DNA of 64,000 bases from the human T2T-CHM13v2.0 reference genome, Homo sapiens. A model generated the notes under the pieces. It was not told where the DNA came from, did no database searches, and was given only the letters and a program-made list of their open reading frames with translations. Shown piece after piece: positions 24,901 to 54,350 of this stretch. Location: the NCBI GenBank assembly GCA_009914755.4, contig CP068257.2, forward strand, positions 6,688,001 to 6,752,000. Reading direction: 5' to 3'. Made by a program: the position numbers and the translations under genes. Every line of letters begins with the position of its first letter. Position 1 is the stretch's first letter.

Positions 24901-26229
24901 GATTGCAATGGAATTGAACGGAATATAATGGAATTAAATGGAATCATCCCGTGTGGAACGGAATGGTATCTAATGCAATGGAATGGAATGGAACAGAACG
25001 GAATGGAATGGAAGAATAGATTGAATCCAAGTGGAATTGAATGGAATGGAATGGATTGGAAAGGAATGGAATGGATTGCAATGGATTGGAATGGAATGGA
25101 ATGGATTCAACCCGAGTGGAATGTAATGGATTGGAATGGAATGGAATGGAATGGAATGGAATGGAATGGAATGGAATCAACACGAATGGAATGGAACGGA
25201 ATGGAATGGAATGGAATGGAATGGTATGGAATGAAATGGAAAGGAACGGAACAGAATCAACCCAAGTGGAATGGAATGGAAAGGAATGCAATTGAATGGA
25301 ATGGAATGGAATGGAATGGAATGGAATGCAATGGAATGGAATCAACCCGAGTGGAGTAGAATGGAATGGAATGGAATCAACCGCAGTGGAATGGAATGGA
25401 ATGGAATGCAATAGAATGGAATGGAATGGAATGGAATGGAATTCAATGGAATCAACCCGAGTGGAATGGAATGGTATGGAATGCAGTGGAATGGAGTGGA
25501 ACAGAACGGAATGGAATGGAATGGAAATGATTGAATCTGAGTGGAATTGAATGGAAGAGAAAGCATTGGAAAGGAATGGAAAGGATTCAACCCGAGTGGA
25601 ATGTAATGGATTGGAATGGAGTGGAATGTAATGGAATGGATTGGAATGGAATGGAATCAACACAAATGGAAAGGAATGGAATGGAATGGAATAGAATGGA
25701 AAGGAATGGAATGCAATGGAATGGAATGGAATGGAATGAAATGGAATAAACCTGAATGGAATGGAATGGAATGAATTGGAATAAACCCGAATGGAATGGA
25801 ATGGAATGGAATGGAATGGAATGGAATGGAGTGGAATGGAATAAACACCAGTGGAATGAAATGAAATGGAATGGAATGGTATGGAATGGAATGGAATGGA
25901 AAGGAATGAAATCAACCCCAGTATAATGGAACAGAATGGAAATGAATGCAATGGAATGGAAAGGAATGGAATCAACTGGAATGGAATTAAATGGAATGGA
26001 ATGGAGTGGAATGGAATGGAATGCATTGGAATCAACAAGAGTGAAATGCAATGGAATGGAATGGAATGGAATGGAATGGAATGGAATGGAATGGAATAGA
26101 ATGGAATCAACCCGAGTGGAGTGAAATCAAATGGAATGGAATGGAATGGAATCAACCTGAGTGGAACGGAATGGAATGGAATGGAATGGAATGGAATGGT
26201 ATCAACCAGAGTGGAATGGAATGGAATTG

Positions 26230-32200: not shown

Positions 32201-32800
32201 AATGGAATGGAATGGAATGAAATGTAATGGAGTGGAATGGAATGGAATGGAATCAACCCGAGTGGAGTGGAATAAAATGGAATGGAATGGAATGGAATCA
32301 ACCTGAGTGGAACGGAATGGAATGGAATGGAACGGAGTGGAATGGTATCAACCAGAGTGGACTGGAATGGAATGGAATGGAATAGAATGGAACGGAATGG
32401 AATGGAATGGAATGGAATGGAAACTACTGGAATGGAATGGAGACAACCCGAGTGGAATAGAATGCAATGGAATGGAATGGAGTGGAATGGAATGGAATGG
32501 AATGGAATCAACCCGACTGGAATGGAATGGAATGGAAAGGAATGAAAGGAATGCAATGGAATGGAATGGTATGGAATGCAATGGGAAGGAATTGAATGGA
32601 ATGGAACGGAATGGAACGGAACGGAGTGGAATCGAATGGACCCCAATGGAATGGAATGGAATGGAATGGATTGGAATGGAATGGAACCGAATTAACACGA
32701 GTGGAATGGAATGTAATGGAATGGAGCGGAATGGAGTGGAAAGGAATGGAATGGAATGGAATGGAATGGAATGGAATCAACCCGAGTGGAATGGAATGGA
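26230..32800 (+). repeat. HOR-A penultimate copy. A ~6.57 kb block is nearly identical to 33230-39800 at an offset of 7000-7010 bp, with a ~430 bp junction at 32800-33230 between them.
   Basis: Long identical ORF pairs: 27714..28736(-) vs the body of 34724..36124(-); 27766..28089 vs 34776..35099; 28091..28324 vs 35101..35334; 28111..28554 vs 35121..35564; 29160..29375 vs 36170..36385; 30609..31133 vs 37619..38143; 31483..32646(-) vs 38533..39651(-); 31737..32105 vs 38742..39110; 32282..32545 vs 39287..39550. The offset is 7010 early and 7005 late. Confidence 0.85.
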
Positions 32801-33229
32801 ATGGAACGCAATGGAATGGAATGGTATGGAATCAACCCTAGTGGAATGGTATGGAATGGAATGGAACGGAACGGAATGGAATGGAATCAACCCGAATGGA
32901 ATGGAACGGAGTGCAGTGGAATGGTACGGAATGGAATGGAATGGAAAGGAATCAACCCGAAGGGTTTGGAATGGAATGGAATGGAATGGAATGGAATGGA
33001 ATGGAATAACATGCAATCAACTTTGGTGGAATGGTATAGAATGGAATAACATACAATCAACTTTGGTGGAATGGTATGGAATGGAATGGAATGGAATAAA
33101 AGGGCATGGAATGGAATGGAATCAACGCGAATGGAATGGAACGGAATGGAGTGGAATGGTATGGAATGGAATGGAATGGAAAGGAATCAACCTGAAATGT
33201 ATGGAATGGAATGGAATGGAATGGAATGG

Positions 33230-36200
33230 AATGGAATGGAATGGAATGGAATGCAATGGAATCAACTGGAATGGAATGGAATGGAATGGAATGGAACGGA
33301 ATGGAATGGAAACTACTGGAATGGAATGGAAACAACCCGAGTGGAATGGAATGCAATGAATGGAATGGAGTGGAATGGAATGGAATGGAATGGAATCAAC
33401 ACGAGTGTACTGCAACGGAATGAAATGGAATGGAATGGAATGGAATGGAATGGAATGGAATGGAACGGAATGGAACAGAACGGAATTGAATGGAATGGAA
33501 TCAACCCAAGTGGAAAGGAATGGAATGGAATGGAATGGAAGGAATGGAATGGAATGGAATGGAATAGCATGCAATCAACTTTGGTGGAATGGTATGGAAT
33601 GGTATGGTATGGAGTGGAATGGAATGGAATGGTATGGAATGGAATGGAATAAAAGGGCATGGAATGGAATGGAATTAACCCGAGAGGAATGGAATGGAAT
33701 GGAATGGAATGGAATGGAAGGAATGGAAATGAATCAAACCGAGTGGAATGGAATAGAATGGAATGGAATGGAATGGAAACAATGCAATGCAATTGTATCA
33801 ACGGGAATGGAATGCATTGGAATGGAATGGAATGGAATCACCCTGAGTGGATAGGAATGGAATGGAAGGGAATGGAAAGGAATGGAATGGAATGGAAACT
33901 AATGGAATGGAATGGAAACAACCCGAGTGGAATGGAATGGAATGGAATGGAATGGAATGGAATGGAATGGAATGAAATGGAATGGAATGGAATACAACAA
34001 AATGGAAACAACCCGAGTGGAATGGCATGGAATGGAAAGGACTTGAATATAATGGAATGGATTGGAATCAACCCGATTACAAACTAATGGAAAGCAATGG
34101 AATGGAATGGAATGGAATGGAATGGAATTTACCCGAGTGGAATGGAATGTAACGAAATTAAATGGAATGGAATGGAATGGAATGGAATGGAATACTACAA
34201 AATGGCAACAATCCGAGTGGAATGGCATGGAATGGAAACGACCTGAATATAATGGAATGGATTGGAATCAACCCGATTAGAAACTAATGGAATGGAATGG
34301 AATGGAATGGAAACTACCCGAGTGGAATGGAATGTAATGGAATGGAGTGGAATGGAATGGAATGGAATGGAATGGAATGGAATGGAATGGAACAGAATCG
34401 AATCCAATGGAATCAACTGGAATGGAATGGAATGCAATGGAATGGAATGGAATGGAATGGAATGGAATGGGATCAATCCGGGTGGAATGGAATAGAATAT
34501 AATGATGTGGAATGGAATGGAAGGGAGTGGAATGGAGTTGAATGGAATGGAATGGAATGGAATCAACCCGAATGGAATGGAACGGAATGGAATGGAATGG
34601 AATGGAATGGAATGGAATGGAATGGAATGGAGTCCACCCGAGGTGAATGGAATGGAATGGAATGGAACGGAATATAATGGAATGGAACGGAATCATCCCG
34701 AGTGGAATGGAATGGTATGGAATTCAATAGAATGGAATGGAACAGAACGGAATGAAATGGAATGGAATAGATTGAATGCGAGTGGAATTGAATGGAATGG
34801 AACGGATTGGAATGGAATGGAATGGACTGGAGTGGAATGGAATGGAATCAACACGAATGGGATGGAACGGAATGGAATGGAATGGAAAGGAACGGAATGG
34901 AATCAACCCGAGTGGAATGGAATGGAATGGAATGGAATCCACCCGAGTGGAATGGAATCGAATGGAATGCAATGGAATTGAACGGAATATAATGGAATTA
35001 AAAGGAATCATCCCGAGTGGAATGGAATGGAATCTAATGCAATGGTATCTAATGCAATGGAATGGAATGAAACAGAACGGAAAGGAATGGAAAGAATAGA
35101 TTGAATCCAAGTGGAATTGAATGGAATGGAATGGATTGGAAAGGAATGGAATGGATTGGAATGGATTGGAATGGAAAGGAATGTATTCAACCATTGTGGA
35201 ATGTAATGGATTGGAATGGAATGGAATGGAATGGAATGGAATGGAATGGAATGCAATGGAATCAACACGAATGGAATGGAACGGAATGGAATGGAATGGA
35301 ATGGTATGGAATGAAATGGAAAGGAACGGAATAGAATCAACCAAAGTGGAATGGAATGGAATGGAATGGAAGGGAATCAACACGAGTGGAATGGAGTGGA
35401 AAGGAATGCAATGGAATGGAAAGGAATGGAATGGAATGGAAAGGAATGGAATGGAATGGAATGGAATGGAATGGAATGGAATCAACTCGAGTGGAGTAGA
35501 ATGGAATGGAATGGAATCAACCCCAGTGGAATGGAATGGAATCGAATGGAATGGAATGGAATAAAAGGGCATGGAATAGAACGGAATCAACCTGAATGGA
35601 AAGGAACGGAATGGAGTGGAATGGTATGGAATGGAATGGAAACTACTGGAATGGAATGGAAACAACCCGAGTGGAATGGAATGCAATGGAATGGAATGGA
35701 GGGGAATGGATTGGAATGGAATGGAATCAGCACGAGTGGACTGCAACGGAATGAAATGGAATGGAATGGAATGGAATGGAATGGAATGGAACGGAACGGA
35801 ACGGAACGGAATTGAATGGAATGGAATCAACCCAAGGGGAAAGGAATGGAATGGAATGGAATGGAATGGAATGGAATGGAATGGAATGGAAGAGTATGCA
35901 ATCAAATTTGGTGGAATGGTATGGAATGGTATGGAATGGAATGGAATGGAATGGTATGGAATGGAATGGAATAAAAGGGCATGGAATGGAATGAAATCAA
36001 CCCGACAGGAATGGAAAGGAATGGAATGGAATGGAATGGAATGGAATGGAATGGAATGGAAATGAATCAAACCGAGTGGAATGGAACGGAATGGCATGGA
36101 AACAATGCAATGCAATGGTATCAACGGGAATGGAATGCATTGGAATGGAATGGAATGGAATCATCCTGAGTGGATAGGATTGGAATGAAAGGGAATGGAA

Positions 36201-39200
36201 AGGAATGGAATGGAATGGAAACTAATGGAATGGAATGGAAACAACCCGAGTGGAATGGAATGGAATGGAATGGAATGGAATGGAATGGAATACAACAAAA
36301 TGGAAACAACCCGAGTGGAATGGCATGGAATGGAAAGGACTTGAATATAATGGAATGGATTGGAATCAACCCGATTAGAAACTAATGGAATTGAATGGAA
36401 TGGAATGGAATAGAATGGAATGGAATGGAATGGCATGGAATCTACCCGAGTGGAATGGAATTGAATGGAATTTAATGGAATGGAATGGAATAGAATGGTA
36501 TGGAATCAACCCGAGTGGAATGGTATAGAATGGAACGTAATGGAACGGAATGGAATGGAATAAAACAGAATGGAATGGAATGGAAACAACCCGAGTGGGA
36601 TGGAATGGAATGGAATGGAGTGGAATGGAATGGAATGGAATGGAGTGGAATGGAATGGAATAGAATGGAATGGAATAGAATGGAATGGAATGAAATGGAA
36701 TAGAATGAAATGGAAAGGAATGGAATGGAAATAACCCGAGTGGAATGGAATGGAATGGAATGGAATGGAATGGAATGGAATGGAATGGAATGGAATCAAC
36801 CCAAGTTAAATGGAATGGAATGGAATGGAACGGAATATAATGGAATGGAACGGAATCATCCCTACTGGAATGGAATGGTATGGAATGCAATGGAATGGAG
36901 TGGAACAGAACGGAATGGAATGGAATGGAATTGATTGAAACCGAGTGGAATTGAATGGAAGGGAATGCATTGGAAAGGAATGGAAAGGATTCAACCCGAG
37001 TGGAATGTAATGGATTGGAATGGAGTGGAATGGAATGGAATGGAATAGAATGGAATGGAATCAACACAAATGGAATGGAATGGAATGTAATGGAATGGAA
37101 TAGAATGGAAAGGAATGGAATGCAAAGGAATGGAATGGAATGGAATGAAATGGAATAAACCCGAATGGAATGGAATGGAATGGAATGGAATGGAATGGAA
37201 TGGAATGGAATGGAATGGAGTGGAATGGAATAAACACCAGTTTAATGAAATGGAATGGAATGGAATGGAATGGAATGGAATGGAATACAACAAAATGGAA
37301 ACAACCCGAGTGGAATGGCATGGAATGAAAAGGATTGAATATAATGGAATGGATTGGAATCAACCCGATTAGAAACTAATGGAATGGAATGGAATGGAAT
37401 GGAATGGAATGGAATGGAATGGAATCTAACCTAGTGGAATGGAAAGGAATGGAATTTAAAGAAATGAAATGGAATGGAATGGAACAGAATTGAATGGAAT
37501 GGAATGGAATGGAATCTACCCGAGTGAAATGGAATGGAATGGAATTTAATGGAATGGAATGGTATAGAATGTAATGGAATCAACCCCAGTGGAATGGTAT
37601 AGAATGTAATGTAATGGAATGGAATGGAATAAAATGGAATGGAATGGAAACAACCCGAGTGGAATGGAATGGAATAACCGGAGAGGAATGGAATGGAATG
37701 GAGTGGAATGGAATGGAATAGAATGGAATAGAAAGGAATGGAATAGAATGAAATTGAAAAGAATGGAATGGAAACCACCCGAGTGGCATGGAATGGAATG
37801 GAATGGAATGCAATGGAATCAACCCGAGTGGAATGGAAAGGAATGGAATGGAACGGAATATAATGGAATGGAATGGAAACATCCCGAGTGGAATGGAATG
37901 GTATGGAATGCAATTGAATGGTATGGAACAGAACGGAATGAAATGGAATGCAATAGATTGATTGCGAGTGGAATTGAATGGAATGGAATGGATTGGAATG
38001 GAATGGAAAGGATTGGAGTGGAATGGAATGGAATCAACAAGAATGGAATGGAAAGGAATGGAAAGGAATGGAATGGAATGGAATGGAATGGTAAGGAACA
38101 GAATGGAAACAACCCGAGTGGAATGGAATGGAATGGACTGTAATCCACCCGAGTGGAATGGAATGTAATGGAATTGAACGGAATATAATGGAATTGAATG
38201 GAATCATCCCGAGTCGAATGGAATGGTATCTAATGCAATGGAATGGAATGGAACAGAACGGAATGGAATGGAAAGAATAGATTGAATCCAAGTGGAATTG
38301 AATGGAATGAAATGGATTGGAAAGGAATGGAATGGATTGGAATGGAAAGGAATGGATTCAACACGAGTGGAATGTAATGGATTGGAATGGAGTGGAATGG
38401 AATAGAATGGAATCAACACGAATGGAATGGAACGGAATGGAATGGAATGGAATGGAATGCTATGGAATGAAATGGAAAGGAACGGAATAGAATCAACCCA
38501 AGTGTAATGGAATGGAAGGGAATTGAAGGGAATCAACACGAGTGGAACGGAATGGAAAGGAATGCAATGGAATGGAATGGAATGGAATGGAATGGAATGG
38601 AAGGGAATGGAATGGAACGGAAAGGAATCAACCCGAGAGGAGTGGAATGGAATAGAATGGAACCAACCCGAGTGGAATGGAATGCTATGGAATTCAATGG
38701 AATGGAGTGGAACAGAACTGAATGATATGAAATGGAATTGATTGAATCCGAGTGGAATTGAACGGAAGGGAACGGATTGGAATGGAATGGAAAGGATTCA
38801 ACACGAGTGGAATGTAATGGAATGGAGTGGAGTGGAATGGAATGGTATGGAATGTAATGGAATGGAATGGAATGGAATGAAATGGAATAAACCCGAATGC
38901 AATGGAATGGATTGGAATGGAATGGAATGGAATGCAATGGAATGGAATGGAATGAAATGGAAAGGAGTGCAATGGAATAAACACCAGTGGAACGAAATGG
39001 AATGGAATGAAATGGAATGGAACGGTATGGAATGGAATGGAATGGAATGCAATGGAGTGAAATCAAACCAAGTAGAATGGAACGGAATGGAATGGAATGG
39101 AATGGAATAGAAAGGAATGGAATCAACTGGAATGGAATGAAATGGAATGGCATGGAGTGGAATGGAATGCAGTGCAATGGAATCAACAAGAGTGGAATGC

Positions 39201-39800
39201 AATGGAATGGAATGGAATGGAATGAAATGTAATGGAGTGGAATGGAATGGAATGGAATCAACCCGAGTGGAGTGGAATAAAATGGAATGGAATGGAATGG
39301 AATCAACCTGAGTGGAACGGAATGGAATGGAATGGAACGGAGTGGAATGGTATCAACCAGAGTGGACTGGAATGGAATGGAATGGAATAGAATGGAACGG
39401 AATGGAATGGAATGGAATGGAATGGAAACTACTGGAATGGAATGGAGACAACCCGAGTGGAATAGAATGCAATGGAATGGAATGGAGTGGAATGGAATGG
39501 AATGGAATGGAATCAACCCGACTGGAATGGAATGGAATGGAAAGGAATGAAAGGAATGCAATGGAATGGAATGGTATGGAATGCAATGGGAAGGAATTGA
39601 ATGGAATGGAACGGAATGGAACGGAACGGAGTGGAATCGAATGGACCCCAATGGAATGGAATGGAATGGAATGGATTGGAATGGAATGGAACCGAATTAA
39701 CACGAGTGGAATGGAATGTAATGGAATGGAGCGGAATGGAGTGGAAAGGAATGGAATGGAATGGAATGGAATGGAATGGAATAACATGCAATCAATCAAC
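33230..39800 (+). repeat. HOR-A last copy, truncated at ~39.8 kb where the HOR-B family begins.
   Basis: Same evidence as the 26230-32800 entry. At 39781, ATAACATGCAATCAATCAACTTTGGTGCAATGGTATGTAATGG corresponds to 33001, after which the sequence no longer follows HOR-A. Confidence 0.85.
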
Positions 39801-39974
39801 TTTGGTGCAATGGTATGTAATGGAATGGAATGGAATGGAATGGAATGGAATGGAATGGAATGGAATAAAACGGCATGGAATGAAACAGAATCAACGTGAA
39901 TGGAGTGAAACGGAATGGATTGTAATTGTATGGAATGGAATGGAATGGGAAGGAATCAACAAGAATGGAATGGA

Positions 39975-42900
39975 ATGGAATGGAATGGAATGGAACGGAA
40001 TGGAAGCAACCGGAGTGGAATGAAATGGAATGGAATTGAAAGGAATGGAATGGAATGGAATGGAATGGAATGGAATGGAACGGACCGGAACCGAATGGAA
40101 TTGAATGGAATGGAATCAACCCAAGTGGAAAGGAATGGAATGGAATGGAATGGAATGGAATGGAATGGAATGGAATGGAATGGAATAGCATGCAATCAAC
40201 TTTGGTGGAATGGTATGGAATGGAATGGAATGGAATGGAATGGAATGGAATGGAATGGAATAAAAGGGCATGGCATGGAATGGAACCATTCCGAGGGGAA
40301 TGGTATGGAATGGAATGGAATGGATTGTAATGGAATGGAATAGAAATGAATCAAACCGTGTGGAATTTAATGTAATATAATGTAATGGAAAGGAATGGGA
40401 ACAATGCAATGCAATGGTATCAACTGGAATGGAATGCATTGGAATGGAATGGAATGGAATGGAATCACCCTGAGTGGAAAGGAATAGAATGGAATGGAAA
40501 GGAATGGAATGGAATCAAAACTAATGGAACGGAATGGAAACAACCCGAGTGGAATGGAATGCAATGGAATGGAATGGAATGGAATGCAATGGAATGGAAT
40601 GGAATGGAATGCAGTGGAATGGAATGGAATGGAATGGAATGGAATGGAATGGAATGGAATGGAATACAACAAAATGGAAACAACCCGAGTGGAATGGCAT
40701 GGAATGGAAAGCACTTGAATATAATGGAATGGATTGGAATCAACCCGATTAGAAAATAATGGAATGGAATGGAATGGAATGGAATGGAATGGAATGGAAT
40801 GGAATCTAACCAAGTGGAATGGAAAGGAATGGAATTTAATGGAATGAAATGGAATGGAATGGAACGGAATTGAATATAATGGAATGGAATGGAATCTACC
40901 CGAGTGGAATGGAATGGAATGGAATTTAATGGAATGGAATGGAATAGAATGTAATGGAATCAACCCGAGTGGAATGGTATAGAATGTAATGGAATGCAAT
41001 GGAATGAAATAAAATGGAATGGAATGGAATGGCATGGAAACAACCCGAGTGGAATGGAATGGAATAACCGGAGAGGAATGCAATGGAATGGAGTGGAATG
41101 GAATGGAATAGAATGGAATGGAATGGAATGGAATGGAATGGAATAGAATGAAATTGAAAGTAATGGAATGGAAAACACCCGAGTGGAATGGAATGGAATG
41201 GAATGGAATTTAATGGAATGGAATGGAATGGAATCAACCCGAGTGGAATGGAAAGGAATGGAATGGATCGGAATATAATGGAATGGAATGGAATCAACCC
41301 GAGAGGAACGGAATGAAATGGAATGGAATGGAATGGAATGGAATGGAATGGAATGGAATGGAAATCAGTCAAACCGAGTGGAATGGAATGGAATGGAATG
41401 GAATGGAATGAAATGGAAACAGTGCAAAGCAATGCTATCAAAGGGAATGGAATGCATTGGAATGGAATGGAATGGAATCACCCTGAGTAGAAAGGAATGG
41501 AATGGAATGGAATGGAAAGGATGGAATGGAATGGAAACTAATGGAACGGAATGGAAACAACCCGAGTGGAAGGGAATGTAATGGAATGCAATGGAATGGA
41601 ATGGAATGGAATACAACAAAATGGAAACAACCCGAGTGGAATGGCATGGAATGGAAAGGACTTGAATATAATGAAATGGATTGGAATCAACCCGATTAGA
41701 AACTAATGGAATGGAATGGAATGGAATGGAATGGAATGGAATGGAATGGAATGGAATGGAATCTACACAAGTGGAATGGAATGTAATGGAATTAAATGGA
41801 ATGGAATAGAATGGAATGGAATGGAACGGAGTGGAATGGAATGGAATGGAACGGAATCTACCCGAGTGGAATGGAATGGAATGGGATTTAATGGAATGGA
41901 ATGGAATAGAATGGTATGGAATCAACCCGAGTGGAATGGTAAAGAATGCAAAGTAATGTAAAGTAATGGAATGGAATAAAATGGAATGGAATGGAATGGA
42001 AACAACCCGAGTGGAGTGGACTGGAATGGAATGGAATGGAATGGAATAACCGGAGAGGAATTGAATAGAATGCAGTGTAATGGAATGGAATACAACGGAA
42101 TGGAATGGAATAGAATGAAATGGAAAGGAATGGAATAGAAACAACCCGAGTGGAATGGAATGGAATGGAATCCACCCGAGTGGAATGGAATGCAATGGAA
42201 TTGAACGGAATATAATGGAATTGAAGGGAATCATCCCGAGTGGAATGGAATAGTATTTAATGCAATGGAATGGAAAGGAACAGAACGGAATGGAATGGAA
42301 AGAATAGATTGAATCCAAGTGGATTTGAATGGAATGAAATTGATTGGAAAGGAATGGAATGGATTCTAATGGAAAGGAGTGGATTCAACCCGAGGGAATG
42401 TAATGGATTGGAATGGAGTGGAATGGAATGGAATGTAATCAACACGAATGGAATGGAACGGAATGGAATGGAATGGAATGGAATGCTATGGAATGAAATA
42501 GAAAGGAACGGAATAGAATCAACCCAAATGGAATGGAATGGAATGGAAGGGAATCAACACGTGTGGAATGGAATGGAAAGGAATGCAAAGGAATGGAATG
42601 GAATGGAATGCAATGGAATGGAATGGAATGGAATGGAATGGAATCAACCCGAGTGGAGGGGAATGGAATGGAATGGAATCAACAAGAGTGGAGTGGAATA
42701 AAATGGAATGGAATGGGATGGAATCAACCTGAGTGGAACGGAATGGAATGGAATGGAACGGAATGGAATGGTATCAACCAGAGTGGACTGGAATGGAATG
42801 GAATGGAATGGAATGGAATGGAATGGAATGGAATGGAACAGAATCAACCTGAGTCAAATAGAATGGAATGGAATGGAATGGAATGCAATGGAATGGAAAC

Positions 42901-45530
42901 TACTGGAATGTCATGGAAACAACCCGAGTGGAGTGGAATGGAATGGAATGGAATGGAATGGAATGGATTGGAATGGAATGTAAAGGAATGGAATGGAATC
43001 AACCCGACTGGAGTGGAATGGAAAGGAAAGGAATGAATGGAATGGAATGGAATGGATTGGAATGGAATGGAATGGAATAAACCAGAATGGAATGGAATGA
43101 AATGGAATGGAATGGAGTGGAATGGAATAAACACCAGTGGAATGAAATGGAATGGAAGGAAATGGAATGGAATGGACTGGAATGGAATGGAATGGAATGA
43201 AATCAACCCGAATAGAATGGAACGGAAAGGAATGTAATGGAATAGAGTGGAATGGAATGGAATGGAATGAAATCAACCCGAATAGAATGGAACGGAAAGG
43301 AATGTAATGGAATAGAGTGGAATGGAATGGAATGGAATGGAATGGAATGGAATGGAATGGAATGGAATGGAATGGATTCAACCCGAGTGGAATGGAATGG
43401 AATGGAATGCAATGGAATGGAATGGTATGGAATCAACCCTAGTGGAATGGTATGGAATGGAATGGAACGGAACGGAATGGAATTTAATCAACCCGAATGG
43501 AATGGAACGGAATGGAGTGGAATGGTACGGAATGGAATGAAATGGAAAGGAATCAACACGAAGGGTATGGATTGTAATGCAATGGAATGGAATGGAATGG
43601 AATCAACCCGACTGGAATGCAATGGAATAAAATGGAATGGAATGGAACGGAACGGAACGGAACGGAACGGAATTGAAAGGAATGGAATCAACCCGAGTGA
43701 AAAGGAATGGAATGGAAAGGAATGGAATGGAATGGAATGGAATGGAATGGAATGGAGTGGAATGGAATGGAATGGAATAACATGCAATCAACTTTGGTGG
43801 CATGGTATGGAATGGAATAACATGCAATCAAATTTGGTGGAATGGTATTTAAAGAAATGGAAAAGAATGGAATGGAATGGAATAAAAGGGCATTGAAAGG
43901 AAAGGAATCAAACCGAATGGAATGGAACGGAATGGAGTGGAATGGTATGGAATGGAATGGAATGGAAAGAAATCAACCCGATGTGTATGGAATGGAATGG
44001 AATGGAATGGAACGGAATGGAATGGAATCAACACGAGTGGAATGCAATGGAATGAAATGGAATGGAATGGAACGGAACAGAACAGAATTGAATGAAATGG
44101 AATCAACCCAAGTGGAAAGGAATGGAATGGAATGGAATGCAATGGAATGCAATTGAATGGAATGGAATAACATGCAATCAACTTTGGTGGAATGGTATGG
44201 AATGGAATGGAATATAATGGAATGGAATGGAACAAAAGGGCATGGAATGGAACGGAATCAAACCGAATGGAATAGAGCGGAAGGGAGTGGAATGGTATGG
44301 AATGGAATGGAATGGAAAGGAATGAACCTGAAGGGCATAGAATGGAATGGAATGGAATGGAAGGGAATGGAAAGGAATGGAATCAACTCGAGTGGAATGT
44401 AATGGAATGGAATGGAACGGAACGGAACGGAAAGGAATTGAATGGAATGGAATCAACCCGAGTGGAATGGAATGGAATGGAATGCAATGGAATGGAATGG
44501 AATGCAATGGAATGGAATGGAATGGAATGGAATGGAATGGAATGGAATGGAATGGAATGGAATAACATGCAATCAACTTTGGTGGAAAGCTATAGAATGG
44601 AATGGAAGGGAATGGAATGGAATGGAATGGAATGGAATGGAAAGGAATGGAATGGAATGGAATAAAAGGGCATGGAATGGAACAGAATCAACCCGAATGG
44701 AAAGGAACGGAAAGGAGTGGAATGGTATGGAATGGAATGGAATAGAAAGGAATCAACCCGAAGGGTATGGAATGGAATGGAATGGAATGGAATGGAATGG
44801 AATGGAATCAACCCGAGTGGAATGCAATGGAATGAAATGGAAGGGAATGGAATGGAATGGAACGGAACGGAACGGAATGGAACGGAACGGAATTGAATGG
44901 AATGGAATCAATAAAAGTGGAAAGGAATGGAATGGAATGGAATGGAATGGAATGGAATGGAATGGAATGCAATGGAATGGAATGGAATGGAATGGAATGG
45001 AATGGAATGGAATGGAATGCAATGGAATGGAATGGAATGGAATGGAATGGAATGGAATGGAATAGCATGCAATCAACTTTGGTGGAATGGCATGGAATGG
45101 AATGGAATGGAATGGAATAAAAGGGCATGGAATGGAATGGAATCAACCCGAGAGGAATGGAATGAAATGGAATGGAATGGAATGGAATGGAAATCAGTCA
45201 AACCGAGTGGAATGTAATGTAATGGAATGGAATGGAAACACTGCAAAGCAATGCTATCAAAGGGAATGGAATGCATTGGAATGGAATGGAATGGAATCAC
45301 CCTGAGTAGAAAGGAATGGAATGGAATGGAATGGAACGGATGGAATGGAATGGAAACTAATGGAATGGAATGGAAACAACCCGAGTGGAATGGAATGCAA
45401 TGGAATGGAATGGAATGGAATGGAATGGAATGGAATACAACAAAATGGAAACAACCTGAGTGGAATGGCATGGAATGGAAAGGACTTGAATATAATGGAA
45501 TGGATCAGAATCAACCGGATTAGAAACTAA
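39975..45530 (+). repeat. HOR family B, copy 1 (~5.55 kb unit).
   Basis: The sequence from 39961 (..GGAACGGAATGGAAGCAACCGGAGTGGAATGAAATGGAATGGAATTGAAAGG..) recurs at 45540. ORF pairs are identical at offsets of 5555, 5550, 5470, 5465 and 5505: 40367..41083(-) vs 45922..46638(-); 40385..40759 vs 46009..46314; 40926..41441(-) vs 46481..46996(-); 41223 vs 46778; 42270..42701 vs 47820..48251; 42533 vs 48083; 43488..43787(-) vs 48958..49257(-); 43842..44156 vs 49312..49626; 44297..44665 vs 49767..50135; 45087..45305 vs 50592..50810; 45227 vs 50732. Confidence 0.88.
43201..43340 (+). repeat. HOR-B copy 1 only: a ~70 bp tandem micro-duplication (AATCAACCCGAATAGAATGGAACGGAAAGGAATGTAATGGAATAGAGTGGAATGGAATGGAATGGAATGA x2) plus two extra GGAAT units, giving a net +80 bp relative to copy 2.
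   Basis: The motif starts at 43201 and again at 43271. The corresponding site in copy 2 (48741-48850) has a single copy followed by 8 rather than 10 AATGG units. The inter-copy offset drops from 5550 to 5470 exactly across this interval. Confidence 0.8.
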
Positions 45531-48500
45531 TGGAATGGAATGGAATGGAATGGAATGGAACGGAATGGAAGCAACCGGAGTGGAATGAAATGGAATGGAA
45601 TTGAAAGGAATGGAATGGAATGGAATGGAATGGAATGGAATGGAATGGAACGGACCGGAACCGAATGGAATTGAATGGAATGGAATCAACCCAAGTGGAA
45701 AGGAATGGAATGGAATGGAATGGAATGGAATGGAATGGAATGGAATGGAATAGCATGCAATCAACTTTGGTGGAATGGTATGGAATGGAATGGAATGGAA
45801 TGGAATGGAATGGAATAAAAGGGCATGGCATGGAATGGAACCATTCCGAGGGGAATGGTATGGAATGGAATGGAATGGATTGTAATGGAATGGAATAGAA
45901 ATGAATCAAACCGTGTGGAATTTAATGTAATATAATGTAATGGAAAGGAATGGGAACAATGCAATGCAATGGTATCAACTGGAATGGAATGCATTGTAAT
46001 GGAATGGAATGGAATGGAATCACCCTGAGTGGAAAGGAATAGAATGGAATGGAAAGGAATGGAATGGAATCAAAACTAATGGAACGGAATGGAAACAACC
46101 CGAGTGGAATGGAATGCAATGGAATGGAATGGAATGGAATGCAATGGAATGGAATGGAATGGAATGCAGTGGAATGGAATGGAATGGAATGGAATGGAAT
46201 GGAATGGAATGGAATGGAATACAACAAAATGGAAACAACCCGAGTGGAATGGCATGGAATGGAAAGCACTTGAATATAATGGAATGGATTGGAATCAACC
46301 CGATTAGAAAATAATGGAATGGAATGGAATGGAATGGAATGGAATGGAATGGAATGGAATCTAACCAAGTGGAATGGAAAGGAATGGAATTTAATGGAAT
46401 GAAATGGAATGGAATGGAACGGAATTGAATATAATGGAATGGAATGGAATCTACCCGAGTGGAATGGAATGGAATGGAATTTAATGGAATGGAATGGAAT
46501 AGAATGTAATGGAATCAACCCGAGTGGAATGGTATAGAATGTAATGGAATGCAATGGAATGAAATAAAATGGAATGGAATGGAATGGCATGGAAACAACC
46601 CGAGTGGAATGGAATGGAATAACCGGAGAGGAATGCAATGGAATGGAGTGGAATGGAATGGAATAGAATGGAATGGAATGGAATGGAATGGAATGGAATA
46701 GAATGAAATTGAAAGTAATGGAATGGAAAACACCCGAGTGGAATGGAATGGAATGGAATGGAATTTAATGGAATGGAATGGAATGGAATCAACCCGAGTG
46801 GAATGGAAAGGAATGGAATGGATCGGAATATAATGGAATGGAATGGAATCAACCCGAGAGGAACGGAATGAAATGGAATGGAATGGAATGGAATGGAATG
46901 GAATGGAATGGAATGGAAATCAGTCAAACCGAGTGGAATGGAATGGAATGGAATGGAATGGAATGAAATGGAAACAGTGCAAAGCAATGCTATCAAAGGG
47001 AATGGAATGCATTGGAATGGAATGGAATGGAATCACCCTGAGTAGAAAGGAATGGAATGGAATGGAATGGAAAGGATGGAATGGAATGGAAACTAATGGA
47101 ACGGAATGGAAACAACCCGAGTGGAAGGGAATGTAATGGAATGCAATGGAATGGAATGGAATGGAATACAACAAAATGGAAACAACCCGAGTGGAATGGC
47201 ATGGAATGGAAAGGACTTGAATATAATGAAATGGATTGGAATCAACCCGATTAGAAACTAATGGAATGGAATGGAATGGAATGGAATGGAATGGAATGGA
47301 ATGGAATGGAATCTACACAAGTGGAATGGAATGTAATGGAATTAAATGGAATGGAATAGAATGGAATGGAATGGAACGGAGTGGAATGGAATGGAATGGA
47401 ACGGAATCTACCCGAGTGGAATGGAATGGAATGGGATTTAATGGAATGGAATGGAATAGAATGGTATGGAATCAACCCGAGTGGAATGGTAAAGAATGCA
47501 AAGTAATGTAAAGTAATGGAATGGAATAAAATGGAATGGAATGGAATGGAAACAACCCGAGTGGAGTGGACTGGAATGGAATGGAATGGAATGGAATAAC
47601 CGGAGAGGAATTGAATAGAATGCAGTGTAATGGAATGGAATACAACGGAATGGAATGGAATAGAATGAAATGGAAAGGAATGGAATAGAAACAACCCGAG
47701 TGGAATGGAATGGAATGGAATCCACCCGAGTGGAATGGAATGCAATGGAATTGAACGGAATATAATGGAATTGAAGGGAATCATCCCGAGTGGAATGGAA
47801 TAGTATTTAATGCAATGGAATGGAAAGGAACAGAACGGAATGGAATGGAAAGAATAGATTGAATCCAAGTGGATTTGAATGGAATGAAATTGATTGGAAA
47901 GGAATGGAATGGATTCTAATGGAAAGGAGTGGATTCAACCCGAGGGAATGTAATGGATTGGAATGGAGTGGAATGGAATGGAATGTAATCAACACGAATG
48001 GAATGGAACGGAATGGAATGGAATGGAATGGAATGCTATGGAATGAAATAGAAAGGAACGGAATAGAATCAACCCAAATGGAATGGAATGGAATGGAAGG
48101 GAATCAACACGTGTGGAATGGAATGGAAAGGAATGCAAAGGAATGGAATGGAATGGAATGCAATGGAATGGAATGGAATGGAATGGAATGGAATCAACCC
48201 GAGTGGAGGGGAATGGAATGGAATGGAATCAACAAGAGTGGAGTGGAATAAAATGGAATGGAATGGGATGGAATCAACCTGAGTGGAACGGAATGGAATG
48301 GAATGGAACGGAATGGAATGGTATCAACCAGAGTGGACTGGAATGGAATGGAATGGAATGGAATGGAATGGAATGGAACAGAATCAACCTGAGTCAAATA
48401 GAATGGAATGGAATGGAATGGAATGCAATGGAATGGAAACTACTGGAATGTCATGGAAACAACCCGAGTGGAGTGGAATGGAATGGAATGGAATGGAATG

Positions 48501-51040
48501 GAATGGAATGGAATGGATTGGAATGGAATGTAAAGGAATGGAATGGAATCAACCCGACTGGAATGGAATGGAAAGGAAAGGAATGAATGGAATGGAATGG
48601 AATGGATTGGAATGGAATGGAATGGAATAAACCAGAATGGAATGGAATGAAATGGAATGGAATGGAGTGGAATGGAATAAACACCAGTGGAATGAAATGG
48701 AATGGAAGGAAATGGAATGGAATGGAATGGAATGGAATGGAATGGAATGAAATCAACCCGAATAGAATGGAACGGAAAGGAATGTAATGGAATAGAGTGG
48801 AATGGAATGGAATGGAATGGAATGGAATGGAATGGAATGGAATGGATTCAACCCGAGTGGAATGGAATGGAATGGAATGCAATGGAATGGAATGGTATGG
48901 AATCAACCCTAGTGGAATGGTATGGAATGGAATGGAACGGAACGGAATGGAATTTAATCAACCCGAATGGAATGGAACGGAATGGAGTGGAATGGTACGG
49001 AATGGAATGAAATGGAAAGGAATCAACACGAAGGGTATGGATTGTAATGCAATGGAATGGAATGGAATGGAATCAACCCGACTGGAATGCAATGGAATAA
49101 AATGGAATGGAATGGAACGGAACGGAACGGAACGGAACGGAATTGAAAGGAATGGAATCAACCCGAGTGAAAAGGAATGGAATGGAAAGGAATGGAATGG
49201 AATGGAATGGAATGGAATGGAATGGAGTGGAATGGAATGGAATGGAATAACATGCAATCAACTTTGGTGGCATGGTATGGAATGGAATAACATGCAATCA
49301 AATTTGGTGGAATGGTATTTAAAGAAATGGAAAAGAATGGAATGGAATGGAATAAAAGGGCATTGAAAGGAAAGGAATCAAACCGAATGGAATGGAACGG
49401 AATGGAGTGGAATGGTATGGAATGGAATGGAATGGAAAGAAATCAACCCGATGTGTATGGAATGGAATGGAATGGAATGGAACGGAATGGAATGGAATCA
49501 ACACGAGTGGAATGCAATGGAATGAAATGGAATGGAATGGAACGGAACAGAACAGAATTGAATGAAATGGAATCAACCCAAGTGGAAAGGAATGGAATGG
49601 AATGGAATGCAATGGAATGCAATTGAATGGAATGGAATAACATGCAATCAACTTTGGTGGAATGGTATGGAATGGAATGGAATATAATGGAATGGAATGG
49701 AACAAAAGGGCATGGAATGGAACGGAATCAAACCGAATGGAATAGAGCGGAAGGGAGTGGAATGGTATGGAATGGAATGGAATGGAAAGGAATGAACCTG
49801 AAGGGCATGGAATGGAATGGAATGGAATGGAAGGGAATGGAAAGGAATGGAATCAACTCGAGTGGAATGTAATGGAATGGAATGGAACGGAACGGAACGG
49901 AAAGGAATTGAATGGAATGGAATCAACCCGAGTGGAATGGAATGGAATGGAATGCAATGGAATGGAATGGAATGCAATGGAATGGAATGGAATGGAATGG
50001 AATGGAATGGAATGGAATGGAATGGAATGGAATAACATGCAATCAACTTTGGTGGAAAGCTATAGAATGGAATGGAAGGGAATGGAATGGAATGGAATGG
50101 AATGGAATGGAAAGGAATGGAATGGAATGGAATAAAAGGGCATGGAATGGAACAGAATCAACCCGAATGGAAAGGAACGGAAAGGAGTGGAATGGTATGG
50201 AATGGAATGGAATAGAAAGGAATCAACCCGAAGGGTATGGAATGGAATGGAATGGAATGGAATGGAATGGAATCAACCCGAGTGGAATGCAATGGAATGA
50301 AATGGAAGGGAATGGAATGGAATGGAACGGAACGGAACGGAATGGAACGGAACGGAATTGAATGGAATGGAATCAATAAAAGTGGAAAGGAATGGAATGG
50401 AATGGAATGGAATGGAATGGAATGGAATGGAATGCAATGGAATGGAATGGAATGGAATGGAATGGAATGGAATGCAATGGAATGGAATGGAATGGAATGG
50501 AATGGAATGGAATGGAATGGAATGGAATGCAATGGAATGGAATGGAATGGAATGGAATGGAATGGAATAGCATGCAATCAACTTTGGTGGAATGGCATGG
50601 AATGGAATGGAATGGAATGGAATAAAAGGGCATGGAATGGAATGGAATCAACCCGAGAGGAATGGAATGAAATGGAATGGAATGGAATGGAATGGAAATC
50701 AGTCAAACCGAGTGGAATGTAATGTAATGGAATGGAATGGAAACACTGCAAAGCAATGCTATCAAAGGGAATGGAATGCATTGGAATGGAATGGAATGGA
50801 ATCACCCTGAGTAGAAAGGAATGGAATGGAATGGAATGGAACGGATGGAATGGAATGGAAACTAATGGAATGGAATGGAAACAACCCGAGTGGAATGGAA
50901 TGCAATGGAATGGAATGGAATGGAATGGAATGGAATGGAATGGAATACAACAAAATGGAAACAACCTGAGTGGAATGGCATGGAATGGAAAGGACTTGAA
51001 TATAATGGAATGGATCAGAATCAACCGGATTAGAAACTAA
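45530..51040 (+). repeat. HOR family B, copy 2 (~5.51 kb unit). It ends at ~51040, where the sequence jumps to a diverged interior portion of the unit.
   Basis: See copy 1. ORF 45620..45898 equals the C-terminal part of 39915..40343, offset 5555. After 51040 the sequence resembles the unit interior near 41716 (peptide IY(T/K)SGMECNGIKWNGIEWNG) instead of starting a phase-preserving third copy. Confidence 0.85.
50380..50570 (+). repeat. Near-pure (GGAAT)n tract (~38 units, with occasional GCAAT variants). It is ~40 bp (8 units) longer than its counterpart at 44897-45060 in HOR-B copy 1.
   Basis: Read directly. The inter-copy offset changes from 5465 to 5505 across this tract. Confidence 0.75.
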
Positions 51041-53569
51041 TGGAATGGAATGGAATGGAATGGAATGGAATGGAATGGAATAGAATGGAATGGAATGGAA
51101 TCTACAAAAGTGGAATGGAATGTAATGGAATTAAATGGAATGGAATAGAATGGAATGGAACGGAATGGAATGGAATGGAATGGAATGGAATGGAATGGAA
51201 TCAACCCGAGTGGAATGGAATGGAAAGGAATGGAAGGGAATCAACACGAGTGGAATGGAATGGAAAGGAATGCAATGGAATGGAATGGAATGGAATGGAA
51301 TGGAATGGAATGGAGTGGAATGGAATGGAATCTACCCAAGTGCAATGGAATGGAATGGAATTTAATGGAATGGAATGGAATAGAATGGTATGGAATCAAC
51401 CCCAGTGGAATGGTAAAGAATGCAATGTAATGGAACGGAATGGAATGGAATAAAATGGAATGGAATGGAATGGAATGGAAACAACCCGAGTGCAATGGAA
51501 TGGAATGGAATAACCGGAGAGGAATGGAATGGAATGAAGTGTAATGGAATGTAATAGAATGGAATGGAATGGAATGGAATGGAATGGAATGGAATAGAAT
51601 GAAATGGAAAGGAATGGAATAGAAACAACCAGAGTGGAATGGAATGGAAAGGAATCCACCCTAGTGGAATGCAATGGAATGGAATGGAACGGAACACAAT
51701 GGAATGGAATGGAATTGTCCCGAGTGGAATGGAATGGTATGGAATGCAATAGAATGGAATGGAACAGAACGGAATGAAATGGAATGGAATAGATTGTATG
51801 CGAGTGGAATTGAATGGAATGGAATGGATTGCAATGGAATGGAATGGATTGGAGTGGAATGGAATGGAATCAACACGAATGGAATGTAACGGAATGGAAT
51901 GGAATGGAATGTAACGGAATGGAATGGAATGGAATGGAAAGGAACGGAATGGAATCAAACTTAGTGGAATGGAAGGGAATGGAATGGAATCCACCCGAGT
52001 GTAATGGAATGGAATGGAATGCAATGGAATTGAACGGAATATAATGGAATGGAATGCAATCATCCCGAGTGGAATGGAATGGTATATAATGCAATGGAAT
52101 GAAATGGAACAGAACGGAATGGAATGGAAATAATAGATTGAATCCAAGTGGAATTGAATGGAATGGAATGGATTGGAAAGGAATGGAATGGATTGGAATG
52201 GAAAGGAATGGATTCAACCCGAGTGGAATGTAATGGATTGGAATGGAGTGGAATGGAATGGAACGGAATGAACACGAATGTAATCGAATGGAATGGAATG
52301 GAATGGTAAGCAATGAAATGGAAAGGAACGGAATAGAATCAAACCAAGTGGAAGGGAATGGAATGGAATGGAAGGGAATCAACACGAGTGGAATGGAATG
52401 GAAAGGAATGCAATGGAATGGAATGGAATGGAATGGAATGGAATGGAATGGAATCTACCCGAGTGGAGTGGAATGCAATGGAATGGAATGGAATGGAATC
52501 AACCCGAGTGGAATGGAATGGAAGAGAATGCAATAGAATGGAATGGAATGGAATGCAATGGAATGGAATGGAGTGGAATTCAATGGAATCAAACCGAGTG
52601 GAATGGAATGGTATGGAATGCAATTAAATGGAGTGGAACAGAAGGGAATGGAATGGAATGGAATTGATTGAATCCGAGTGGAATTGAATGGAAGGGAATA
52701 CATCGGAATGGAATGGAAAAGATTCAACCCGAGTGGAATGTAATGGAATGGATTGGAGTGGAATGGAGTGGAATCACCACAAATGGAATGGAATGCAATG
52801 GAATAGAAGGGATTGGAATAGAATGGAATGGAATGGAACGGAATGGAATAGAATGGAATGTAATGGAATGGAGTAGAATGGAATAAACACCAGTGGAATG
52901 AAATGGAATGGAATGGAATGGAATGGAATTGAATGGAATGAAATGAACCCCAGTAGAACACAACGGAATGGAATGGAATGGAAAGGAATGGAATCAACTG
53001 GAATGGAATGAAATGGAATGGAATGGAGTGGAATGGAATGGAATGCAATGGAATCAACAAGAGTGAAATGCAATGGAATGGAATAGAATGGAATGGAATG
53101 GAACGGAATGGAATCAACCAGAATGGAGTGAAATAAAATGGAAAGGAGTGGAATGGAATCAACCTGAGTGGAACGGAACGGAATGGAATGGAATGCAATG
53201 GAATGGAATGGAATGGAATGGAATGGAATGGTATCAACCAGAGTGGAATGGAATGGAATGGAATGGAATGGAATGGAGCAGGAATGGAATGCAATGGAAT
53301 CAACTGCAATGAAATGGAATGGAATGGAATTGATTGAATCCGAGTGGAAATAAAAGGAAGGGAGTGCATTGGAATGGAATGGAAAGGATTAAACCCGAGT
53401 GGAATGTAATGGAATGGAGTGGAGTGGAATGGAATGGTATGGAATGGAATGGAATGGAATAGAATCAACACAAAGAGAAAGGAATGGAATGGAATGGAAT
53501 AGAATGGAAAGGAACGGAATGCACTGGAATGGAATGGAATGGAATGAAATGGAATAAACCCGAATGGAA

Positions 53570-54350
53570 TGAAATGGAATGGAATGGAATGGAATGGAAT
53601 GCAATGGAATGGAATGGAATGGAATGGAATAATATGCAATCAACTTTGGTGGAATGGTATAGAATGGAATGCAATGGAATGGAATGGAATGGAATGGAAT
53701 CAAACCGAGTGGAATGCAATGGAATGGAATAGAATGGAATGGAATGGAATGGAATCAACCCGAAGGAAATGGAATGGAATGGAAAGGAATGAATGCAATG
53801 GAATGGAATGGGATGGTATGGAATGCAATGGGATGGAATTGAATGGAATGGAACGGAATGGAACGGAATGGAATGGACCTCAATGGAATGGAAGGGAATG
53901 GAATGGATTGGAATGGGATGGAACGGAATTAACCCGAGTGGAATGGAATGGAATGGAATGGAACGGAATGGAATGGAATGGAATGGACCCCAATGGAATG
54001 GAATGGAATGGAATGGAATGGAATGGAATGGAATGGAATCAACCCGAGTGGAATGTAATGGAATGGAATGCAATGAAATGGAACGGTATGGAATCAACCC
54101 TAGTGGAATGGTGTGGAATGGAATGGAACGGAACGGAATGGAATGGAATGGAATCAACCTGAATGGAATGGAATGGAATGCAGTGGAAAGGTACGTAATG
54201 GAATGGATTGGAAAGGAATCAACTCGAAAGGTATGGAATGGAATGCAATGGAATGGAACGGAATGGAATGGAATCAACCTGAGTGGAATGCAATGGAATA
54301 AAATGGAATGGAATGGAACGGAACGGAACGGAATGGAACGGAATTGAAAG
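53570..54350 (+). repeat. Diverged-module block duplicated at 59400-60050 (offset ~5.82 kb).
   Basis: ORF 53793..54347 vs 59617..59877 have near-identical N-terminal ~85 aa. ORF 53569..54162 vs the 59132..60052 interior both read METTR/MESTRRKWNGMERNECNGMEWDGMECNGMELNGMERNGTEWNGPQWNG...DGTELTRVEWNG. Confidence 0.7.

What the first reader, a model, noticed from the sequence alone, without database searches (positions are those of the whole stretch)
39975..51040. Two ~5.5 kb HOR-B copies that are nearly identical. The detected differences are pentamer-count changes and a 70 bp micro-duplication
Across ~5.5 kb the two copies give identical ORF translations over hundreds of residues. The inter-copy offset changes only in steps of 5 bp (one GGAAT unit near 41.5 kb and near 44.7 kb), 40 bp (8 units in the pure tract 44.9-45.06 kb vs 50.38-50.57 kb) and 80 bp (the 70 bp duplication at 43201-43340 plus 2 units). 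This pattern records recent duplication followed by replication-slippage mutations concentrated in the pure pentamer tracts.
Basis: seen in the sequence. Interest (0 to 1): 0.5.

Follow-up and report, generated by a model that had tools for sequence, protein, structure and literature searches.

The report
Recent 5.5 kb duplication in pentamer satellite
Inside a 64 kb stretch of (GGAAT)n "satellite III"-type repeat DNA, one 5.5 kb block has recently been copied in tandem; the two copies now differ almost only in the lengths of their longest pure GGAAT runs, which is ordinary, already described satellite behaviour.

Summary
Copy A (39964-45560) and copy B (45529-51070) align with 5447 matches and 5 substitutions (0.09%). 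There are 11 indel events, all multiples of 5 bp. Out-of-register identity in this satellite is about 76%. Ten of the indels are unit-count changes in pure (GGAAT)n runs. One is a 70 bp tandem micro-duplication plus 2 units, and it is derived in A.

Tract length decides which runs changed. Pooled with an independent 7 kb duplicate next door, 0 of 300 runs of 6 units or fewer differ. In contrast, 21 of 34 runs of 7 units or more differ.

The breakpoints of the 5.5 kb, 7 kb and 70 bp duplications all lie in pure runs. Out-of-register pairing of pure pentamer tracts therefore explains all three scales: 5 bp, 70 bp and kilobases.

The "ORFs" are stop-free pentamer read-through (MEWNG...), not genes. 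"HOR" is a misnomer, because there are only two copies. This is a local nested-tandem-repeat duplication of the kind described for human HSat2/3 by the T2T consortium.

Species and subfamily were not determined, since 0 of 14 published marker 24-mers hit. No reads or other haplotypes could be examined. Ordinary finding, low interest.

The parts
39964..45560 (+). Copy A of the duplicated 5.5 kb block (about 5565 bp period), including the shared junction tract at its 3' end
   Evidence: co-linear with copy B, with 5 substitutions and 11 pentamer-multiple indels.
45529..51070 (+). Copy B of the duplicated block (about 5510 bp)
39964..39995 (+). Left parental pure tract, (AATGG)6AA. Homology between the copies begins exactly at its first base.
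   Evidence: the upstream sequences differ completely (caacaag vs agaaact).
45529..45560 (+). Junction tract: a 32 bp pure pentamer run shared by the end of A and the start of B. The duplication breakpoint lies somewhere within it.
   Evidence: it matches both the left flank tract at 39964 and the right flank tract at 51039.
51039..51081 (+). Right parental pure tract (43 bp). Homology with the end of A stops inside it, at 51070.
43178..43339 (+). 70 bp tandem micro-duplication in copy A only: two exact 70 bp copies bounded by a 22 bp pure-pentamer direct repeat. The following tract, 43318-43376, is 2 units longer than in B.
   Evidence: B (48711-48846) and two paralogous outgroup blocks (53860-54080, 32640-32800) carry a single copy, so the duplication is derived in A.
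44924..45063 (+). Composite tract in A: 9 x GAATG, CAATG, 9 x, CAATG, 7 x
   Evidence: It differs from B by one extra CAATG-delimited block (35+5 bp) and one apparent substitution (45020).
50389..50568 (+). The same composite tract in B: 9, C, 7, C, 10, C, 6 units (40 bp longer)
40042..40261 (+). Three pure tracts that differ between the copies. Lengths in A and B are 40042-40080 39 vs 44 bp, 40132-40186 55 vs 50 bp, and 40215-40261 47 vs 37 bp.
41705..41762 (+). Pure tract, 58 bp in A and 53 bp in B
42789..42967 (+). Two pure tracts. Lengths in A and B are 42789-42838 50 vs 40 bp and 42934-42967 34 vs 44 bp.
44767..44808 (+). Pure tract, 42 bp in A and 37 bp in B
45399..45436 (+). Pure tract, 38 bp in A and 43 bp in B
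26229..39782 (+). Context and control: an independent, equally young duplication with a 7.0 kb offset (26229-32777 and 33229-39782, separated by a 451 bp unduplicated spacer). It shows the same mutation pattern.
   Evidence: 7-8 substitutions (about 0.12%), 11 indels that are all multiples of 5, and 0 of 169 short vs 11 of 18 long tracts changed.

Best explanation
This is non-coding (GGAAT)n satellite with CAACCCGAGT-type interruptions, the hominid 'satellite III / HSat3' type. One 5.5 kb stretch was duplicated in tandem by out-of-register pairing between two pure (GGAAT)n runs about 5.5 kb apart. The pairing could have occurred through unequal sister-chromatid or homologue exchange, or through replication template switching.

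Since then the two copies have gained very few point changes. Their long pure pentamer runs have gained or lost whole units by strand slippage, probably helped by the hairpins the purine-rich strand can form. The same misalignment process on an intermediate scale produced a 70 bp duplication between two pure runs 70 bp apart, and added a 40 bp block inside a composite tract.

Shown here: the duplication, its breakpoints in pure tracts, the indel spectrum, the tract-length threshold, and the derived state of the 70 bp duplication. Inferred: the molecular mechanism (slippage vs exchange), the age, and the species.
For: - The whole window is one-stranded pentamer satellite. TRF gives period 5, GC skew is uniformly +0.65, and there are 6791 GGAAT and 161 CAACCCGAGT, all on the + strand. 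There are no foreign inserts and no Rfam hits.
- A vs B has 5 substitutions in 5452 columns and 11 indels that are all multiples of 5. Background identity is about 76%.
- All 10 simple indels lie in pure runs of 34 bp or more.
- Tract-length threshold: 0/131 vs 10/16 in A/B and 0/169 vs 11/18 in the independent 7 kb pair. Pooled, this is 0/300 vs 21/34.
- The step spectrum is dominated by +/-1 unit (14 events) and +/-2 units (5 events).
- Breakpoints: the junction is a 32 bp pure run identical to both parental tracts. The 7 kb pair's breakpoints are also at pure runs of 25 bp or more. Four of four gives p of about 0.002.
- The 70 bp duplication is bounded by a 22 bp pure direct repeat, and outgroups carry a single copy.
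- No 1-bp or homopolymer indels occur between the copies, which argues against sequencing noise.
- Literature: multi-kb HSat2/3 units are 'nested tandem repeats' that 'evolve and expand hyper-locally' (10.1101/2021.07.12.452052). [quoted passage not shown] That statement matches the threshold seen here.
Against: - No reads, other haplotypes or orthologous loci could be examined. The A/B-specific 27-mer was absent from the metagenome and prokaryote-genome collections. An assembly-level false duplication therefore cannot be formally excluded.
- Slippage and unequal exchange or gene conversion give the same end products.
- Polarity (expansion vs contraction) is unknown for every tract change, because no close outgroup of the unit exists.
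- The threshold is fuzzy at 6-7 units. Three changed tracts are 28-32 bp in their shorter allele.
- Human origin is not shown: 0 of 14 HSat2/3 subfamily marker 24-mers match.
Confidence: 0.85

Rival explanations
1. Assembly artefact. A single 5.5 kb segment was assembled twice, for example two haplotypes or overlapping contig ends placed in tandem. The differences would then be allelic variation or consensus errors.
For: Near-identity of 99.9% with differences limited to tract lengths is also what two alleles of one locus would look like. No reads were available to check coverage.
Against: - The junction is a clean hybrid tract with no extra sequence.
- An adjacent, independent 7 kb pair has the same divergence and spectrum.
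- Older layers at 1-3% divergence with the same architecture show that this is a recurrent natural process in the array.
- No homopolymer or 1-bp indels typical of consensus errors occur.
Confidence: 0.06
2. An old duplication that was recently homogenised. The two units are as old as the 1-3% diverged layers, but a gene-conversion or unequal-exchange tract erased their differences.
For: Concerted evolution is well known in satellites. Neighbouring layers of the 7 kb family span 0.1% to more than 1% divergence.
Against: Identity is uniform over the entire unit and ends exactly at the unit's boundary tracts. A conversion tract would have to coincide with both unit ends. In outcome this rival is indistinguishable from, and less parsimonious than, a fresh duplication.
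Confidence: 0.06
3. The region is functional (coding or structured RNA) and its near-identity is maintained by selection.
For: Long ORFs of 205-317 aa exist on both strands. HSat3 is transcribed under stress in humans, according to literature cited in PMC7767330.
Against: - The translations are MEWNG.../IPFHS... periodic read-through of a pentamer that contains no stop codon in any frame.
- The indels are 5 bp multiples, which would shift the frame.
- No Rfam family matches.
- The rest of the window has the same properties at only about 76-97% identity.
Confidence: 0.01

Closest known systems
Human satellite III (HSat3) nested tandem repeats (NTRs), as described by the T2T consortium (Altemose et al., 10.1101/2021.07.12.452052) and Altemose et al. 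2014 (PMC4022460)
   Same: It has a (GGAAT)n base repeat interrupted by CAACCCGAGT-like motifs on one strand. It has multi-kb irregular repeat units and local variation of periodicity (7.0-7.5 kb and 5.5 kb within 64 kb). This is consistent with units 'evolving and expanding hyper-locally'.
   Different: Only two copies of this particular unit exist in the window. None of the 14 published subfamily marker 24-mers is present, so subfamily, chromosome and even species (human vs another ape) are undetermined.
Alpha-satellite higher-order repeats (HORs)
   Same: It shows tandem amplification of a multi-unit block, near-identity between neighbouring copies, and evolution by unequal exchange.
   Different: There are no discrete monomers of similar length, and the unit is a mosaic of irregular pentamer-derived sub-blocks. 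There are two copies and not an array. The T2T authors explicitly reserve 'HOR' for monomer-based units and use 'NTR' for HSat2/3.
Microsatellite (STR) replication slippage with a length threshold, including (TGGAA)n hairpin slippage (Huang et al. 2017, as cited in PMC11014236)
   Same: Changes are whole units, mostly +/-1-2 units, and mutability rises steeply with pure-run length. No changes occur at 6 units or fewer, while 62% of runs of 7 units or more changed. [quoted passage not shown]
   Different: Here the tracts are embedded by the hundred in a satellite and are not isolated loci. The same tracts also serve as breakpoints for 70 bp and kb-scale duplications.

Membership tests
HSat3-type (satellite III) pentameric satellite | Predominant (GGAAT)n / (CATTC)n pentamer repeat on one strand | tested here: met
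   TRF gives period 5 over 2-64000 with 12,816 copies. There are 6791 GGAAT on + and 3 on -.
HSat3-type (satellite III) pentameric satellite | Interspersed CAACCCGA(A/G)T-type 10-mer that distinguishes satellite III from satellite II.
   There are 161 CAACCCGAGT and 232 CAACCCGA, all on the + strand.
A named human HSat3 subfamily (A1-A6, B1-B5; Altemose 2014) | Presence of subfamily-specific 24-mers | tested here: not met
   Zero exact hits for the most common marker 24-mer of each of the 14 subfamilies. The nearest matches are 1 mismatch for A2, B1, B3 and B5. Only one marker per subfamily could be tested, because the held supplement is truncated to HSat2A1. This result is weak, not decisive.
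Nested tandem repeat (NTR) in the sense of Altemose et al. 2021/22 | Multi-kb tandemly repeated unit built from a shorter simple repeat, without discrete equal-length monomers | tested here: met
   Tandem units of 5.5 kb and 7.0-7.5 kb are composed of irregular pentamer blocks. Sub-blocks are 87-96% alike and not co-linear.
Higher-order repeat (HOR) | Unit made of a fixed number of distinct monomers of similar length, repeated many times | tested here: not met
   There is no monomer periodicity other than 5 bp. Only two copies of the unit exist in the window.
Microsatellite slippage | Indels in whole repeat units, confined to uninterrupted runs, with the rate rising with run length | tested here: met
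   All indels are multiples of 5 bp. Pooled, 0/300 vs 21/34 tracts changed, with p = 8e-12 and 2e-13 per pair.
Microsatellite slippage | Arises during replication (mechanism) and not by recombination | not testable with these tools
   Sequence end-products are the same for both mechanisms. Pedigree data, mutation-accumulation data or in-vitro replication data are needed.
Human origin | Identity to a human reference locus | not testable with these tools
   No eukaryotic genome collection is available. Nine metagenome contigs (probably host contamination) match other parts of the window at 88-98%, but their source organism is unknown.

The most novel reading that the evidence does not exclude
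Pure (GGAAT)n runs of about 7 units or more would be the single engine of HSat3-type array evolution at every scale. The same hairpin-prone tracts that slip by one unit would also be the preferred breakpoints for the 70 bp, 5.5 kb and 7 kb duplications that create new nested repeat units. Unit birth in these satellites would then be predictable from tract length and spacing. The evidence here is suggestive but rests on small numbers: 4 of 4 kb-scale breakpoints and 1 of 1 micro-duplication at pure runs, and a sharp 6/7-unit threshold that matches the in-vitro hairpin-slippage threshold.
Probability: 0.3. Interest if true: 0.4.

Novelty: already known. Interest (0 to 1): 0.15.

Why it matters
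The finding matters mainly as a clean worked example. Within one window, two equally young duplications give an internal calibration of tract instability against point substitution. A pure run of 7 units or more changes length roughly 900 times as often as a single base is substituted. If the substitution rate is about 1e-8 per generation, this implies roughly 1e-5 changes per tract per generation (an inference). No change at all is seen in 300 shorter runs.

This threshold, and the location of the duplication breakpoints in pure runs, could be useful for modelling HSat3 array evolution. They could also help in judging assembly or variant calls in such regions. The finding does not reveal a new element, gene or mechanism.

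Tried and rejected
- A first BLAST of the unit against the window with permissive scoring timed out. It then returned about 300 uninformative alignments at about 76% in every register. That result is useful only as the chance baseline. Stringent scoring with masked pure tracts worked.
- Placing the window in a human HSat3 subfamily failed: 0 of 14 marker 24-mers hit. The full marker list in the held supplement is cut off within HSat2A1.
- Looking for independent copies of the unit or its junction failed. A unit-end 27-mer had no match in metagenome or prokaryotic genome contigs.
- A generic array signature 32-mer had no match in genome contigs. It found 9 short metagenome contigs, but these are only paralogous, at 88-98% to other parts of the window. 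They say nothing about tract polymorphism at this locus.
- Coding potential was rejected.
- A structured RNA family was rejected: no Rfam hits.
- Foreign insertions such as transposable elements were rejected: no 150 bp window falls below 52% period-5 self-match.
- Huang et al. 2017 (PMC5594692) could not be read. It is cited second-hand through PMC11014236.
- Protein-homology, structure-prediction and phage/plasmid/E. coli search tools were deliberately not used. Nothing in the window is coding or prokaryotic.
Full report
**What the window is.** The whole 64 kb is one continuous, single-orientation pentameric satellite.
- Tandem Repeats Finder reports one array of period 5 from base 2 to 64000, with 72% matches.
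- GC content (about 0.40) and GC skew (about +0.65) are flat along the window.
- There are 6791 GGAAT on the + strand against 3 on the - strand. There are also 161 CAACCCGAGT motifs, all on the + strand.
- No 150 bp window departs from the pentamer pattern, and no Rfam family matches.
- From established knowledge, (GGAAT)n plus the CAACCCGA(A/G)T motif is the signature of hominid satellite III (HSat3).
- Species and subfamily could not be fixed. None of the 14 subfamily marker 24-mers in Table 1 of Altemose et al. 2014 (PMC4022460) occurs in the window, and the rest of the marker list is not held.

**Checking the observation.** Chaining of 30-mers finds the pair 39977-45557 and 45542-51067, with the offset drifting from 5565 to 5510.
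- A global alignment of 39975-45541 against 45540-51051 gives 5447 matches, 5 substitutions (0.092%) and 11 indel events. Their sizes are 5, 5, 10, 5, 10, 10, 80, 5, 35, 5 and 5 bp, so every one is a multiple of 5.
- Any arbitrary register of this satellite aligns at about 76%, so the pair is not a chance similarity.
  - One-unit changes lie at 41705 and 44767.
  - The 40 bp difference in the 44.9-45.06 kb tract is real. It adds a whole block delimited by a GCAAT variant: 9-C-9-C-7 units in A against 9-C-7-C-10-C-6 in B.
  - The 80 bp difference is an exact 70 bp tandem duplication (43178-43339 has a perfect period of 70) plus a 10 bp longer tract behind it.
- The 'identical ORFs' are MEWNG.../IPFHS... 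read-through of a pentamer that has no stop codon in any frame. The 238-aa pair differs by one residue. They carry no information about coding.

**Where the differences lie.** All ten simple indels sit inside uninterrupted (GGAAT)n runs of 34-58 bp.
- I classified every pure run in the unit by length. In A/B, 0 of 131 runs of 6 units or fewer differ between the copies, while 10 of 16 runs of 7 units or more differ (Fisher p = 8e-12).
- An independent control is available next door. The pair 26229-32777 / 33229-39782 (7.0 kb offset) has almost the same substitution divergence (about 0.12%), and its 11 internal indels are all multiples of 5. It shows 0 of 169 against 11 of 18 (p = 2e-13).
- Pooled, this is 0 of 300 against 21 of 34. 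Steps are mostly +/-1 unit (14 events) and +/-2 units (5 events).
- The cut-off is between 6 and 7 units. Three changed tracts are 28-32 bp in their shorter allele.
- After Poisson correction, a long tract has changed about 0.96 times per pair while a base has changed 0.0011 times, a ratio near 900.
- An older pair (12346-15700 vs 19829-23223; 1.1% substitutions) still has only multiple-of-5 indels.
- The few substitutions are themselves mostly tract-associated. Nine of 12 convert a canonical unit in a pure run into a variant or back (p about 0.02). Two others are CpG transitions in CAACCCGAG. This result is marginal.

**How the duplications arose.** Homology between A and B begins exactly at the first base of a pure run (39964 / 45529). 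It ends inside a pure run (45560 / 51070).
- The 32 bp junction tract 45529-45560 is identical both to the tract that precedes A and to the start of the tract that follows B. The sequences outside these tracts are unrelated.
- This is the expected product of out-of-register pairing between two pure runs about 5.5 kb apart.
- The breakpoints of the 7 kb pair are also at pure runs of 25 bp or more. Four of four has a chance probability of about 0.002.
- The 70 bp micro-duplication is bounded by a 22 bp pure-pentamer direct repeat.
- That micro-duplication is derived in A, because B and two paralogous blocks carry one copy.
- One process, misalignment of pure pentamer runs, therefore accounts for changes at the 5 bp, 70 bp and kilobase scales.
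- Sequence alone does not show whether the misalignment happens at the replication fork (slippage or template switching) or in recombination (unequal exchange).
- Biophysical work shows that the purine-rich strand forms hairpins. [quoted passage not shown] 2017). This fits the threshold seen here. I could not read the primary paper.

**Is it a HOR?** No.
- The unit occurs only twice. The sequence from 51.1 to 64 kb has no long near-identical partner, and the unit shares only scattered, non-co-linear sub-blocks of 87-96% identity with the rest of the window.
- The T2T centromere paper proposes 'nested tandem repeats' for the multi-kb units of HSat2/3. [quoted passage not shown]
- This window shows exactly that: 7.3-7.5 kb layers at 1-3% divergence from about 8.7 to 26 kb, a 7.0 kb pair at 0.12%, and the 5.5 kb pair at 0.09%.

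**Age (inference).** Five substitutions in 5452 bp (95% Poisson interval 1.6-11.7) at 0.5e-9 per bp per year give about 0.9 Myr, with a range of 0.3-2.1 Myr. The true age would be lower if satellite DNA mutates faster, or if some 'substitutions' are really unit replacements. The estimate assumes a human-like mutation rate and an undetermined species.

**Rivals.**
- A false duplication in the assembly cannot be excluded without reads. It is unlikely, given the clean hybrid junction, the second independent pair with the same spectrum, the older layers of the same kind, and the absence of 1-bp indels.
- An old duplication homogenised by conversion would need a conversion tract that coincides with both unit ends.
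- Coding or structured-RNA function is rejected.

**Searches elsewhere.**
- The unit-specific 27-mer is absent from the metagenome and prokaryotic genome collections.
- A generic 32-mer signature of the array found nine short metagenome contigs, presumably host contamination. They match other parts of the window at 88-98%; the best is L004 against 24309-25239 at 97.5%.
- These contigs are paralogous and give no information on polymorphism at this locus.

**Verdict.** The 'HOR' label should be replaced by 'two-copy local duplication / NTR'. The phenomenon is ordinary and already described for this class of satellite, so interest is low. The only mildly interesting by-products are the sharp 6/7-unit instability threshold and the placement of duplication breakpoints in pure tracts.

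Noticed in passing
window 26229-32777 and 33229-39782: A second, independent near-identical duplicate pair lies here. It has a 7000-7005 bp offset, about 0.12% substitutions and 11 indels that are all multiples of 5. A 451 bp segment (32778-33228) lies between the copies and has no counterpart after the second copy. The pair is therefore not a simple head-to-tail duplication, or its end was later overwritten near the start of copy A.
   Followed up: partly
window ~8700-26200: Older layers of the same roughly 7.3-7.5 kb unit sit here at 1-3% divergence, for example 12346-14526 vs 19829-22024 at 98.4%. The array looks like successive local duplications of different ages and slightly different lengths.
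   Followed up: partly
whole window (pure tracts); pooled pairs 39975-51051 and 26238-39780: There is a sharp length threshold for tract instability. None of 300 pure runs of 6 units or fewer differ between young duplicates, while 21 of 34 runs of 7 units or more differ. This matches an in-vitro statement that more than 6 repeats allow hairpin slippage (PMC11014236).
   Followed up: yes
window 40442, 43013, 43177, 44339, 45020; 29589, 30073, 30750, 30777, 31054; 29788, 31630: Most substitutions between young copies create or remove an interruption in a pure run: 9 of 12, where about 42% is expected (p about 0.02). Two others are G/A changes at the CpG of CAACCCGAG. Some 'substitutions' may really be unit replacements by slippage or conversion.
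   Followed up: partly
whole window: None of the 14 published HSat2/3 subfamily marker 24-mers (Altemose 2014, Table 1) occurs in 64 kb. The array may belong to a poorly marked part of a human subfamily or to a non-human ape.
   Followed up: partly
L001-L009 (metagenome contigs, e.g. L004 203-1143 vs window 24309-25239): Nine short public metagenome contigs carry the same satellite type at 88-98% identity to parts of the window. They are presumably host-DNA contamination of metagenome assemblies.
   Followed up: partly
window 40380-40700 vs 41400-41700, 45208-45570 vs 41389-41746: The 5.5 kb unit contains internal sub-repeats of about 1 kb and 3.8 kb spacing at 90-94% identity. The unit itself is therefore built from older nested duplications.
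   Followed up: no
window 51100-64000: The last 13 kb has no long near-identical partner inside the window. It has only short blocks at 90-97%, for example 53710-54180 vs 59534-59999 at 97.2%.
   Followed up: no
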